From an uncultured Chlamydiae bacterium (GTDB taxonomy: Bacteria > Chlamydiota > Chlamydiia > Chlamydiales > JAJFMA01), in the NCBI GenBank assembly GCA_963713615.1, contig CAVQMM010000001.1:224001-288000 (forward strand): DNA of 64,000 nucleotides. The letters are read 5' to 3'. This document shows positions 844 to 54,175 of this stretch, piece after piece. The translations under genes were made by a program, and so were the position numbers. The notes under the pieces were generated by a model. The model ran no database searches. It saw only the letters and a program-made list of their open reading frames with translations, and had not been told where the DNA came from. Within the stretch, counting starts at the first letter, position 1. Every line of letters begins with the position of its first letter.

Positions 844-913
844 AACCTAAGCCTTCACAATCATCACTAGGCGCGCAGCGCTTTCGAGTGCGGTCGCTTG
901 CGACCGCTTTTCG
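844..913. repeat. Truncated left half of REP-doublet family B
   Basis: aacctaagccttcacaatc...ggcgcgcagcgctttcgagtgcggtcgcttgcgaccgcttttcg matches the left arm at 45255, 54198 and 61311; interrupted by MITE-A. Confidence 0.85.
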
Positions 914-1073
914 GGCCTTATTCACCTTTGCGGTCAGTTTTCGGTCGACTGCAAAAGGATCGTCTGTCGCGTTTTGCTCCTCGGACATAGCTGGCGCTAT
1001 GCCCTCGTCACAAACCACGACATCCGACCTTTTTCGTCCGACCGAAATTCTGACCGTAAAGGTGAACAAGGCC
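914..1073 (+). mobile_element. MITE family A, copy 1 (160 bp)
   Basis: Imperfect TIRs ggccttRttcacctttRcggtcag; 8-bp TSD gcttttcg at 906-913 and 1074-1081. Confidence 0.95.
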
Positions 1074-1080
1074 GCTTTTC

Positions 1081-1250
1081 GTAACTCAAAAGGTTGGCTA
1101 GGTGCAATTTCCTATGTGGCGCAGTCATTCCATGACTGCGAGAACGGTTGAAACAGATTCCGTTTGCATCACATGGGACGTTTGTTTTGCACGTCTCCAC
1201 AATTGCAATGAATTGTTCGCAGTCATGGAATGACTGCGCCACATAGGAAA
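1081..1250. repeat. Palindromic repeat family C
   Basis: 34-bp inverted arms tttcctatgtggcgcagtcattccatgactgcga at 1108 and 1250; left extension gtaactcaaaaggttgg shared with 61228 and (reversed) 39699. Confidence 0.85.
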
Positions 1251-1355
1251 AGGACTTGTAGGATTATTCCTGAGCCCCTTAGGTTCTCGTCAACATTTCG
1301 GTGGAATGGAATTTGCTGACTATGGTATTATACGATACGAATTTCAGATCTTCAT

Positions 1356-1430
1356 CGGAGTATAGCGCAGCTTGGCTAGCGCGGCTGCTTTGGGAGCAGT
1401 AGGTCGGGGGTTCGAATCCCTCTACTCCGA
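1356..1430 (+). tRNA. tRNA-Pro (anticodon TGG)
   Basis: Acceptor stem cggagta/tactccg, D-arm tagcgcagcttggctagcgcg, anticodon loop tt-tgg-ga, T-loop gttcgaatc; no encoded CCA. Confidence 0.95.
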
Positions 1431-1432
1431 TA

Positions 1433-1473
1433 AAGCCCTCACAATCGTTAAGGTTGTGAGGGCTTATTTTTTT
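1433..1473 (+). terminator. Intrinsic terminator after tRNA-Pro
   Basis: Hairpin aagccctcacaat...gttgtgagggctt followed by a T-run. Confidence 0.75.
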
Positions 1474-1486
1474 GTATCGAACGCAC

Positions 1487-1984
1487 TTATTCGGTAGCTT
1501 TGCTGATGGTGGGCTGATGTGTGGAAGGCATTAGGCGAAAATAGGCGAGGGCACCGCGCACTAAAGCGACACCTACAGCGGTGTCGATGGCTCCACGGAT
1601 GTCTGGAGGTACCTGGAAGACATTCATGCACATGCCAACACCCATCATGATCACCATCAAGATGTAGTAGCGAGGGCTATACAGGTGAGCCAAGGAAAGC
1701 GGATTGGGCAACCCTTTAATGCGCAATACTTCGCGATTGGCCGCCTTTTCAAGAACTGCACGACCTTTAAGTTGACCAATGATGAGAGCGAGGACGATTA
1801 AAAAGATCACGCCATTATCGCGGCTAAGAGATAGCCCTTCGAAGCTACTGAGCAGAGGCGTATAGGCTGCGGGAAGCAGTGAACTCTCTAGTAAACGCAA
1901 CCCCACGATAAGTAGAGTTAGCCCTACGACCATCCAGACGGTACCGCCAATGGCGATCGCCCTTCTATGTGTCAATTGAATCAT
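1487..1984 (-). CDS. Small multi-pass membrane hypothetical protein
   Basis: 165 aa with about four hydrophobic segments; RBS-like aaggatgg upstream. Confidence 0.75.
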   Translation of the reverse strand: MIQLTHRRAIAIGGTVWMVVGLTLLIVGLRLLESSLLPAAYTPLLSSFEGLSLSRDNGVIFLIVLALIIGQLKGRAVLEKAANREVLRIKGLPNPLSLAHLYSPRYYILMVIMMGVGMCMNVFQVPPDIRGAIDTAVGVALVRGALAYFRLMPSTHQPTISKATE

Positions 1985-51543: not shown

Positions 51544-51586
51544 TAGATCATCACTATTTTATTATCGATAGATAAGGTATTTTTAA

Positions 51587-51615
51587 GTTATATTGAAAGC
51601 AAAATTTCTTGTCAA
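51587..51615 (-). promoter_or_regulatory. Near-consensus sigma66/sigma70 promoter of the 1939-aa gene
   Basis: TTGACA-17 bp-TATAAC on the minus strand, ~45 bp upstream of the ATG. Confidence 0.7.
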
Positions 51616-51695
51616 TTTATAGTCCATAGAGGAAGATGTTTTGTTGATTGATTATATTAAACGATTATACGCTTCGTGAATGGTTACCGATTTTT

Positions 51696-51939
51696 GGTTC
51701 ATCCGGTTTTGTAGGCCTTAGGTGAGAGGAAAGAAATAGGATTTTACCACAGAGAGCACCGAGACGCAGAGATCGGAGAGAGAAGAAGGGAGGAACATGA
51801 CCTATTAAGATCAAAAAAACTATCTCTTCTTTCCTCCCTCTCCGATCTCTGCGTCTCGGCGCTCTCTGTGGTAAAATCCTAAATCCTCTCCCTGCTAACT
51901 TCTGCCTTTGTAGTCAAGTCCTACAAAACCGGATGACCC
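51696..51939. mobile_element. MITE-like element J containing a family E palindrome (~51737-51881)
   Basis: 20-bp TIR ggKtcatccggttttgtagg; flanks cgattttt / ggattttt (8 bp, one mismatch). Confidence 0.65.
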
Positions 51940-52013
51940 GGATTTTTGATGAAAATTCCTCCGTGCGTAATTGTGCGACATGTTAGTATACAATTTCGTG
52001 ACGAGGCATATGT

Positions 52014-53687
52014 ATGAATAGCATTTTAGTTCCAAAGCTCGTGACCGTCTTTCGTGAGGGATATAGCCTCAAGGACTTCAGCAAGGACCTTATTGCCGGG
52101 ATCATAGTGGGTATTTTGGCCTTACCCATGTCTATTGCCTTTGCTATAGCCAGTGGCGCACGTCCGGAGCAGGGGCTTTATACGGCCATTATAGCTGGAC
52201 TATTGGGAGGAGTACTTTCGGGTTCGCGGTACCAGATCTCGGGGCCGACGGGTGCCTTTATCATTCTTATTGCGGATATCTATCAATGCCAGGGCTATGA
52301 GGGGCTTGTCATTGCTACGTTGTTTGCAGGCATTATTTTGATTGGAATGGGTTTTGCGCGTCTGGGTGCGGCGATTAAGTTCATTCCCTACCCCGTCACC
52401 ATTGGTTTTACAAGTGGCATTGCATTGCTGATTTTCACGACGCAAGTGCATGATTTTACTGGAATGCATATAACGGCATCCATACCAGCGGATTTTTTGG
52501 GAAAGTGGTTAGTCTATTTTCAGAACTTGCATCATGTAGACCTTCCCACGCTAGGGATGGCGTTGTTTTCCTTGGCTGTAGTGATTTGGTGGCCGCGTGT
52601 TACATCGGTTATACCAGGGGCATTGGTTGCTATCGTGCTATCGACAGTGCTGGTAAATTTTTTTGGGGTTCCTGTAGCAACGATTGGAGATTGCTATGGA
52701 GCAGTTCCCAGTAGTTTGCCAACATTCTCTTTACCACATATTACGTGGGCGCACGTGCCTCAGCTTATTTCTCCGGCCATTGCCATCGCCCTTTTGGCGG
52801 GTATTGAATCGCTACTTTCAGCCGTTGTTGCTGATGGTATGACGGGGCGAAGGCATCGGTCGGATATGGAGCTAATCTCTCAGGGGGTCGCCAATATTGG
52901 TTGTGCGCTGGGAGGGGGCCTTCCGTCGACAGGGGCCATTGCTCGGACGGCTACTAACATTAAGTCTGGTGGGCACACTCCTGTGGCCTCTTTGATACAT
53001 GCTTTGACCTTACTGTTGGCTTTGCTGTTTTTGGGCAATGCTGTCGCTATGATACCTATGGCGACATTATCAGCGATTCTTATCGTAGTCGCGTACAACA
53101 TGAGTGAATGGCGCCATTTTCTTCACCTATTTCGCAGTCCAAAGGGCGATGTGGCCATCTTGTTGGTCACCTTTATGCTAACCGTACTAGTTGACCTCGT
53201 TACTGCTATTGAGGTGGGTATCGTCTTGGCCGCTTTTGTGTTTATCAATCGTATGGCTGAAGCTGCTCATACTGACGACCTAAGAGTCGCCCTGACAGAG
53301 GTCGATGATCCTCGCGATTACGAAGCCTTGCAGCAGCTTGATATTCCGTCGGAGGTAGAGGTTTATCAGTTTTATGGCTCTTTGTTCTTTGCTGCTGCAG
53401 AGAAATTTAAGACAGCTTTAGCACGCATCAATCGTCGGCCGTCGGTGCTTATTTTGCGGATGCGTCACGTTTTGAGCATTGACGCCACCGGAATGCGTGC
53501 TCTTGAAGATATTTTGGATAAGGCTAAGCGCGAAAGTACTGTGGTCGTCCTGTCTGGATTGCAACCAAGCCTTTTTGCAGTTATGGAGCGTAGCGGTTTG
53601 ATTGCCCGCATAGGTCCAGAGAACCTCTGTAAGGACATCCGTACAGCTGTAGAACGCTCCCGCGAGATCATTGCTGCGAAGATATGA
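52014..53687 (+). CDS. SulP/SLC26 anion transporter with STAS domain
   Basis: DLIAGIIVGILALPMSIAFAIASG, GPTGAF, GAIARTATN, C-terminal STAS (IDATG). Confidence 0.93.
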   Translation: MNSILVPKLVTVFREGYSLKDFSKDLIAGIIVGILALPMSIAFAIASGARPEQGLYTAIIAGLLGGVLSGSRYQISGPTGAFIILIADIYQCQGYEGLVIATLFAGIILIGMGFARLGAAIKFIPYPVTIGFTSGIALLIFTTQVHDFTGMHITASIPADFLGKWLVYFQNLHHVDLPTLGMALFSLAVVIWWPRVTSVIPGALVAIVLSTVLVNFFGVPVATIGDCYGAVPSSLPTFSLPHITWAHVPQLISPAIAIALLAGIESLLSAVVADGMTGRRHRSDMELISQGVANIGCALGGGLPSTGAIARTATNIKSGGHTPVASLIHALTLLLALLFLGNAVAMIPMATLSAILIVVAYNMSEWRHFLHLFRSPKGDVAILLVTFMLTVLVDLVTAIEVGIVLAAFVFINRMAEAAHTDDLRVALTEVDDPRDYEALQQLDIPSEVEVYQFYGSLFFAAAEKFKTALARINRRPSVLILRMRHVLSIDATGMRALEDILDKAKRESTVVVLSGLQPSLFAVMERSGLIARIGPENLCKDIRTAVERSREIIAAKI

Positions 53688-53773
53688 CGCCTAGAGATAG
53701 GAGGGAGAAGAAAATTTTTTAGTTTTTTATTTTGGATTTGTCCATATGAGGTAATTGCAAAAGTCCGATTTTC

Positions 53774-53933
53774 GGCCTTATTCACCTTTGCGGTCAGTTT
53801 TCGGTCGACTGCAAAAGGATCGTCTGTCGCGTTTTGCTCCTCGGACATAGCTGGCGCTATGCCCTCGTCACAAACCACGACATCCGACCTTTTTCGTCCG
53901 ACCGAAATTCTGACCGTAAAGGTGAACAAGGCC
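53774..53933 (+). mobile_element. MITE family A, copy 4
   Basis: TSD cgattttc at 53766-53773 and 53934-53941; inserted in the D left arm. Confidence 0.95.
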
Positions 53934-54175
53934 CGATTTTCCGAAGTCAATTTCCTGAAAATCGGATGCCGGTGAAGAGAGAGTCATTCCTTTCCCAGGC
54001 CCGAAGGGTCGATATTGCAACAGGCCATGGCATCGCCATGGTATATGCCAAAACGGTTTTAGCAGCCTGTAGGGCTGCCATAAAGCGCATGCATAAATGG
54101 TGTTTGTAAACTGGCGTCTTATAGCAGTCCTTCAGACTGTAAAATCCCTTCCTGGCATATACCATGGCGATGCCA

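What the first reader, a model, noticed from the sequence alone, without database searches (positions are those of the whole stretch)
906..53941. MITE-A is recently active: four identical copies with four different 8-bp TSDs
Seen: copies at 914, 3376, 11585 (reverse) and 53774 read identical by eye. Their TSDs are gcttttcg, cctatctg, ctttattg and cgattttc, all with G/C ends and an AT-rich core. It is the youngest layer because it interrupts families B and D. No transposase is in the window. Inference: mobilised in trans by a DDE transposase; GGC-initiated TIRs with 8-bp TSDs would fit the IS1595 family.
Basis: partly seen in the sequence, partly recalled or inferred. Interest (0 to 1): 0.7.

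Follow-up and report, generated by a model that had tools for sequence, protein, structure and literature searches.

The report
Mini-transposon burst driven by unclassified transposase
The four identical 160-base repeats are miniature jumping elements with about 116 copies in the genome, likely moved by an unclassified transposase (DUF6399) encoded elsewhere in the same genome rather than by IS1595, and they lie mostly in the inferred direction of DNA replication.

Summary
Observation confirmed: four letter-identical 160-bp copies, each with the 8-bp duplication stated; a fifth, degenerate copy lies at 54559-54717. The genome holds 116 full copies of this subfamily (80 identical) and 13 of a sister subfamily; 110 of 129 keep an 8-bp duplication, and 39 of those 110 have an empty paralogous site. 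The IS1595 guess fails: the genome has no IS1595 domain. An intact 1,883-bp IS outside the window has the same first 16 bases at both ends and an 8-bp duplication. It encodes a 559-aa DUF6399 protein predicted to be a DDE transposase (RNase H core, DxxH, long helical insert; nearest structures Hermes and ISCth4). Relatives in many phyla share these ends. The scan found this DUF6399-MITE link before on other DNA (four notes). Added here: MITE orientation follows the GC-skew replichores (83 of 112, p=3e-7; other repeat families unbiased), targets are T-rich on one strand independently of that, and the central hairpin is shared with MITEs that have unrelated ends. Present-day activity is not shown.

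The parts
914..1073 (+). MITE-A copy 1 (160 bp), inserted in a family-B repeat
   Evidence: exact match; empty paralog at C1:1949559
906..913 (+). left 8-bp target duplication of copy 1 (right copy at 1074-1081)
914..937 (+). left terminal inverted repeat (partner 1050-1073; 22 of 24 complementary); first 16 bases identical to the left end of the autonomous IS
977..1009 (+). central core hairpin (CTCCTCG-n3-ATAGC-n4-GCTAT-n3-CTCGTC), shared with MITE families that have unrelated ends
3376..3535 (+). MITE-A copy 2; duplications at 3368-3375 and 3536-3543; adds 56 codons in frame to a glycosyltransferase-92 gene
3226..4059 (+). GT92 gene that carries copy 2; homology to a congener's protein runs on past a premature stop to about 4299, so it is probably a pseudogene
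11585..11744 (-). MITE-A copy 3; duplications at 11577-11584 and 11745-11752; 19 bp upstream of the folP start codon (11565, minus strand)
53774..53933 (+). MITE-A copy 4, inserted in a family-D repeat; duplications at 53766-53773 and 53934-53941
   Evidence: 111 empty paralogs
54559..54717 (+). fifth copy (159 bp, 96.9%): right end replaced by a left-type end, no target duplication

Best explanation
[quoted passage not shown] Shown: copy number, ends identical to the IS over the first 16 bases, 8-bp duplications for both MITE and IS, empty paralogous sites, and invariant D166/D221/E473 plus a DxxH motif. Inferred: the enzyme binds the ~24-bp ends and makes an 8-bp staggered cut in an AT-rich target that is T-rich on one strand. 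It would treat the left and right ends differently and load in a fixed polarity relative to the replication fork, which explains why 74% of copies point with the fork. By analogy with IS256 and other p-MULT elements, copy number would rise by copy-out/paste-in through a circle (not tested). A sister subfamily (A2, 13 copies) matches a second, internally deleted DUF6399 IS in the same way.
For: Autonomous IS at G000:C1:1035800-1037682 with duplication CTCAAAGG and an intact 559-aa ORF. End identity: A1-left to IS1-left 16/16, A1-right to IS1-right 16/16; A2-left matches IS2-right 16/16 but IS1 ends only 13-14/16. PF19936 at E 2.7e-41. D166, D221 and E473 are present in 129 of 129 aligned homologs, D/E240 in 129, H243 in 128. 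AlphaFold pLDDT 93.7; the nine Foldseek hits at E<=0.001 are all Hermes or ISCth4; VIA-align gives integrase cores Z 14.6 (rmsd 2.9, 144 aligned) and ISCth4 Z 12.2 (rmsd 4.2, 258 aligned). The nearest named Atlas clusters carry ISL3, Mutator, IS66 and IS6 families on 17-95% of members. Of 69 near-full DUF6399 loci from many phyla, 52 have paired GG(C)CTTG-like ends and 19 have an 8- or 9-bp duplication. In one single-contig relative, 4 of 4 full copies have 8-bp duplications. Orientation with the skew-defined leading strand is 83 of 112 and flips between arms (44:12 and 17:39). Genes are only 52% leading, and seven control repeat or IS families are unbiased. The result survives moving ori/ter by 150 kb, a local-skew test (73 of 99) and 5000 shuffles with a free split (0 reach 83). 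T-rich target polarity is 68:19 and appears in both orientation classes (46:13 and 19:5).
Against: Only one intact transposase gene serves about 116 MITEs; the second IS1 copy is interrupted and truncated and both IS2 copies lack about 105 residues. The MITE interior has no similarity to the IS interior, so it is not a simple deletion derivative. 18 of 129 full copies and 28 of 47 flanked IS pairs elsewhere lack a duplication. No transposition was observed: public contigs show only filled sites. The orientation bias is not significant for A2 (8 of 13). In the relative G134, 4 of 6 IS copies are leading, 1 lagging and 1 sits at an unclear boundary. The intact IS1 copy itself lies against the fork. 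No conserved beta-clamp motif was found (loose pattern in 14 of 129). A congener with about 20 related MITE-core matches has no DUF6399 hit in its draft assembly.
Confidence: 0.85

Rival explanations
1. MITE-A is mobilised by an IS1595-family (ISPna2-like) transposase.
For: 8-bp duplications fit IS1595 (PMC8101967, passages). The GGCnnTG end of ISPna2 is recalled, not from a call.
Against: No PF12762 match in this 99%-complete genome. The only long element with these ends encodes DUF6399.
Confidence: 0.03
2. The MITE-IS pairing is right, but the orientation bias comes from target choice or from selection after insertion (for example against transcription clashes or hairpin damage on one template strand), not from transposase-fork coupling.
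For: The leading strand is slightly T-rich (1-3%) and the target is T-rich in element orientation. Only 25 of 110 sites lie in long ORFs against 79% of random positions, so selection or avoidance shapes the sites. PMC3971601 lists these alternatives (passages).
Against: A 1-3% skew is too small to give 74:26. The target polarity holds within both orientation classes, and the bias is present between divergent genes (25:7) and between tandem genes in either sense (28:6 and 13:9). Other hairpin repeats in the same genome show no bias. The element is nearly palindromic, so its two orientations differ little as obstacles.
Confidence: 0.25
3. The copies spread by recombination or gene conversion between repeats, or are an assembly artefact of collapsed repeats.
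For: 80 copies are identical; a few copies have one arm converted to the other; some sit in duplicated regions.
Against: There are 103 distinct duplications among 110 sites. Empty paralogs hold the target once. A congener's GT92 lacks the 56-residue insert. Public contigs recover MITE junctions with the same flanks as the assembly.
Confidence: 0.02
4. The element is kept as a functional host RNA or peptide cassette (RPE-like in-frame insert or regulatory hairpin).
For: 160+8 = 168 bp = 56 codons; length is exactly 160 in five subfamilies; 25 of 60 pairs covary; one RNA-library contig holds it (not shown transcribed).
Against: In-frame insertions are 12 of 25 coding sites, which is what 3 open frames of 6 give by chance. 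The one in-frame window gene has a further stop. No Rfam family reached its threshold. Arm-to-arm conversion can also produce covariation in palindromes.
Confidence: 0.08

Closest known systems
Type II prokaryotic MITEs (Correia, QMITE, Chunjie; review PMC10969869, first sixth of the text and passages read)
   Same: Under 500 bp, TIRs, target duplication, stem-loop, mostly intergenic, similarity to the parent IS confined to the ends.
   Different: The cognate transposase family is unclassified; copy orientation follows the replichores; the internal core is shared with MITEs of other end types.
p-MULT / Mutator-like prokaryotic transposases: IS256, ISH6, ISLre2, ISKra4 (PMC3942029, parts 2-4 of 6 read); ISCth4 structure
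   Same: DDE in an RNase H fold, C/D(2)H motif 19 residues after D2, helical insert, 8-9 bp duplications, about 24-bp IRs, oriented insertion in some members.
   Different: 252 residues separate D2 and E (helical stretch about 220) against a 99-138 insert. No profile match to IS256 and no PF00872 among the 25 listed families. It has an N-terminal HTH, and integrase-core (rve) similarity in 13 of 84 members.
ISL3 family
   Same: DxFH motif, GG ends and 8-bp AT-rich duplications (recalled); PF01610 is hit by 2 of 84 homologs and appears in the nearest Atlas clusters.
   Different: The query has no PF01610 or NF033550 match; hhalign probability is 0.2% against a shallow ISL3 profile; the genome's own three ISL3 copies do not carry MITE-A ends.
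IS1595 family
   Same: 8-bp duplication, single gene.
   Different: No DDE_Tnp_IS1595 domain and no N-terminal zinc finger; the protein is much longer.
Replication-oriented IS families (PMC3971601, passages read)
   Same: Family-specific orientation relative to fork movement; IS256, IS66a and ISAs1 favour the leading strand.
   Different: That survey found bias mainly in Firmicutes. Its text has no hit for 'MITE' or 'Chlamyd', and no beta-clamp motif is evident here.

Membership tests
MITE (type II) | Short, non-coding, terminal inverted repeats | tested here: met
   160 bp, 22/24 TIR
MITE (type II) | Target-site duplication and insertion into empty sites | tested here: met
   110 of 129 with an 8-bp duplication; 39 of 110 with empty paralogs
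MITE (type II) | Ends shared with an autonomous IS, interior not | tested here: met
MITE (type II) | Movement in trans demonstrated | not testable with these tools
   needs a transposition assay or deep reads; contigs were uninformative
IS1595 | DDE_Tnp_IS1595 (PF12762) domain, called diagnostic in PMC8101967 | tested here: not met
   absent from the cognate protein and from the genome
IS1595 | N-terminal zinc finger (all groups but IS1016) | tested here: not met
   the N-terminus is helical and HTH-like, with no conserved cysteine set
IS1595 | 8-bp target duplication | tested here: met
   (shared by many families)
p-MULT / Mutator-like | DDE triad in an RNase H fold | tested here: met
   predicted model and conservation
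p-MULT / Mutator-like | C/D(2)H motif 11-19 residues after D2 | tested here: met
   D240xxH243, 19 after D221
p-MULT / Mutator-like | Helical insert of 99-138 residues between D2 and E | tested here: not met
   helical, but about 220 residues (241-462)
p-MULT / Mutator-like | 8-9 bp direct repeats and 18-39 bp IRs | tested here: met
   (88-bp IRs in G134 are an exception)
p-MULT / Mutator-like | Sequence-level link to the p-MULT network | tested here: inconclusive
   no HMM or hhalign match to 27 IS256 sequences; ISH6, ISLre2 and ISKra4 were not compared directly; the Atlas gives a lead only
p-MULT / Mutator-like | Circular intermediate | not testable with these tools
   no raw reads were available
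ISL3 | PF01610 / NF033550 domain | tested here: not met
   query has no match; 2 of 84 and 1 of 84 homologs match weakly
RPE-like in-frame elements | Preferential in-frame insertion in genes | tested here: not met
   12 of 25 coding sites in frame, with 3 of 6 frames open; genes are avoided

The most novel reading that the evidence does not exclude
DUF6399 defines a widespread, unlisted IS family (GGCCTTG-type ends, 8-9 bp duplications) whose transposase integrates with fixed polarity at the replication fork and on an asymmetric target. Its MITE was built by fitting IS ends onto a portable, structurally conserved hairpin core that at least two other end types have also acquired, so the core would be a functional module for mobility (for example a single-strand structure formed at the fork) and not decayed filler.
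Probability: 0.25. Interest if true: 0.7.

Novelty: new variant of a known kind. Interest (0 to 1): 0.45.

Why it matters
It gives a function to a domain of unknown function with 1,627 clusters at 50% identity that annotation pipelines do not call a transposase, so IS surveys likely miss it. This genome is a good test bed: one intact enzyme, two matched MITE/IS end types and 110 natural insertion sites. These yield a target consensus and a strong fork-linked polarity, which make the mechanism directly testable. The MITE itself is an ordinary kind of element, and the DUF6399 link was already noted elsewhere in this scan.

Tried and rejected
IS1595: no domain in the genome. IS256: none in the genome. 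Profile comparisons with ISL3 (7 sequences), IS256 (27) and IS1595 (3, fragmentary) gave nothing; these profiles are shallow, so this is weak. Sequence search of the PDB found only weak HTH and coiled-coil matches. No IS1595 entry was seen among the listed fold matches, which excludes nothing. Rfam: only sub-threshold miRNA-hairpin matches. In-frame preference: chance level. Swapped duplications between the 18 copies that lack one: none found. MITE-A copies split by a later element: none found among 29 partial hits. Public runs: best share 0.32, contigs only, depth about 2 outside the MITE; no empty allele; recognisable flanks match sites already in the assembly, and two or three flanks could not be placed and may come from related elements. 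This says nothing for or against current activity. Beta-clamp motif: not evident. Fork polarity in a second genome: too few copies. Literature: 'DUF6399' 0 papers; 'PF19936' 0; the search for new or unclassified IS families gave no listing that looked relevant (listing only); the search for a shared MITE core gave none (listing only). ISfinder, most subscription journals and supplements were not searched, so the family may already have a name there. 11 of 80 loci were dropped before the end count because they held only part of the gene; several kept loci come from the same genome; the end pattern was anchored on GG after an unanchored pass.
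Full report
Observation. A fifth copy at 54559-54717 is 96.9% identical, has a left-type sequence at both ends and no duplication. The whole element folds as one long hairpin.

Genome-wide. The window lies at C1:224001-288000 of a 3.97-Mb, three-contig assembly. The host is probably an environmental chlamydia; this is my inference from the nearest named transposase loci and is not established. BLAST gives 158 non-overlapping hits, 129 of them full length: 116 of subfamily A1 (80 identical to the window copies) and 13 of subfamily A2 (about 73% identical to A1, 10 identical to each other). 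109 have an exact 8-bp duplication, one more sits in a T run that fits 8, one has 9 bp, and 18 have none. The 110 duplications are 103 different sequences, AT-rich in the core, with G or C at both ends in 63. For 39 of 110 sites an uninterrupted paralog exists in the same genome, including the family-B site at 914 and the family-D site at 53774. A1 is the most homogeneous of five window families compared, and no A copy split by a later element was found. Among 40 relatives, one congener has an older 69-74% related MITE.

The partner. Scanning for the ends outside full MITE copies finds one long pair with an 8-bp duplication: C1:1035800-1037682, 1,883 bp, encoding 559 aa. Its first 16 bases at each end equal those of A1. 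A second IS, present twice and lacking about 105 residues of the helical insert, has ends that match A2 better than IS1 does. A further IS1 copy is interrupted by another IS and truncated. The protein matches only Pfam DUF6399 and no NCBIfam IS family. The genome has no IS1595 and no IS256 domain; its three ISL3 copies do not carry these ends.

What DUF6399 is. There are 1,563 homologs in one search and 1,627 clusters at 50% identity in another. In 129 aligned homologs D166, E167, D221, E473 and N476 are invariant and D240xxH243 nearly so. The model (pLDDT 93.7) has an N-terminal helical/HTH region, an RNase H core and a helical insert of about 220 residues between the second D and the E. Foldseek's nine hits at E<=0.001 are Hermes and ISCth4; VIA-align ranks integrase cores first (Z 14.6, rmsd 2.9, 144 aligned), with ISCth4 at Z 12.2 and Hermes at Z 12.1. 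The DxxH lies 19 residues after D2, within the p-MULT definition in PMC3942029, but the insert is longer than the 99-138 residues given there, and shallow profile comparisons with IS256, ISL3 and IS1595 found nothing. So it works like a Mutator-type DDE transposase but is not shown to belong to a named family. Of 80 loci from named genomes, 69 were near full length. 52 of these have paired GG(C)CTTG-like ends 1.7-2.0 kb apart; 13 have 8-bp and 6 have 9-bp duplications, 28 none, 5 lack flanks. They span chlamydiae, Desulfobacterota, Gammaproteobacteria, Planctomycetota, Chloroflexota and others. A single-contig relative has four full copies, all with 8-bp duplications and different 88-bp IRs. 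Five plasmid records annotate homologs only as 'DUF6399 domain-containing protein'. Full-text searches for DUF6399 and PF19936 found no paper; ISfinder could not be searched. Four earlier notes of this scan reached the same link on other genomes; I had stated my reading before seeing them.

Polarity. Read left to right (the transposase direction in IS1, by end identity), 83 of 112 chromosomal A1 copies point along the GC-skew leading strand: 44:12 on one arm and 17:39 on the other (p=3e-7). Genes are 52% leading, and four other repeat families and three IS show no bias. The result holds on moving ori and ter, with local skew (73 of 99), with unique flanks only (81 of 110) and against shuffles with a freely chosen split (0 of 5000). 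Separately, the duplicated target is T-rich in element orientation (68:19), in both orientation classes. Against generality: A2 is 8 of 13, the relative's IS copies are 4 leading, 1 lagging and 1 unclear, the intact IS1 lies against the fork, and no clamp motif is evident. Fork-linked orientation is known for several IS families (PMC3971601, passages); its cause here is inferred. A look-up of earlier notes for this point returned nothing.

The interior. It does not derive from IS1. A1, A2, the congener's element and two metagenome elements are all exactly 160 bp, align without gaps, and keep the hairpin through changes on both sides in 25 of 60 pairs (0 of 500 shuffles; slid controls 3-8). This rests on seven sequences from about five lineages, and arm conversion could contribute, though the internal loops are conserved in sequence. 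The 33-bp central core recurs in MITEs with GTA-type ends and 8-bp duplications in this genome and in the congener, and in an element with a third end type in another congener. That GTA-type ends resemble IS66 is recalled. Why the core is shared is unexplained.

Effects on the host. Only 25 of 110 sites fall in long ORFs, against 79% of random positions. Insertion adds 168 bp, and 3 of 6 frames are open; 12 of 25 coding insertions keep the frame, as chance predicts. Copy 2 adds 56 residues to a GT92 protein whose homolog in a congener is contiguous at that point; the gene also has a premature stop. Copy 3 sits between folP and promoter-like sites upstream; any effect is untested.

Verdict. A real, young MITE with an identified likely partner that is not IS1595. 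The element is an ordinary kind; the partner family is unclassified in the libraries searched and has been noted before in this scan. The fork polarity, target asymmetry and shared core are the additions. Interest 0.45.

Noticed in passing
window 977-1009; G000:C1:191206-191362 and 1795357-1795514; L153, L155, L159 (G002); L144 (G001): The same 33-bp central hairpin core occurs in MITE families with unrelated terminal repeats (GGCC-type, GTA-type with 8-bp duplications, and a third type).
   Followed up: partly
G000:C1:1063345-1064974 and 1074398-1076015: Two inverted copies, about 9.4 kb apart, of a second DUF6399 IS share an in-frame loss of about 105 residues of the helical insert; one keeps a 462-codon open frame. 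Their ends match MITE subfamily A2 and neither has a target duplication.
   Followed up: partly
G000:C1:1056875-1056931, 1551998-1552053, 3678934-3679000 and nine similar: 44-67 bp collapsed derivatives made of the two ends only; at least three keep an exact 8-bp duplication.
   Followed up: partly
L001 (G000:C1:1034800-1038700): The intact IS and a MITE-A copy have both landed in the same broken, transposase-like gene, about 250 bp apart; that gene had no NCBIfam match.
   Followed up: partly
window 11565-11860: Copy 3 lies 19 bp upstream of the folP start, between it and two promoter-like sites, so its hairpin could affect folP expression.
   Followed up: no
window 2054-3181 (-) and 3226-4299 (+): Two divergent GT92-like glycosyltransferase genes; the plus-strand one carries the in-frame MITE and a premature stop.
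   Followed up: partly
G000:C1:130119-130342: A MITE-A copy is inserted inside a collapsed older copy of its own family.
   Followed up: no
window 45037-45521, 53746-54535, 61221-61614 and genome-wide: The genome is heavily loaded with nested repeats: about 300-350 hits each for families B, C and D, and an IS of about 2.3 kb that repeatedly sits inside family-B repeats (for example C1:433454-435748, 18 copies).
   Followed up: no
window 55181-55615: A 12-bp-period tandem repeat inside the 631-aa ORF at 55031-56926.
   Followed up: no
L136-L139 (G134): The DUF6399 IS of this relative has unusually long 88-bp inverted repeats and a different end sequence, but the same 8-bp duplication.
   Followed up: partly
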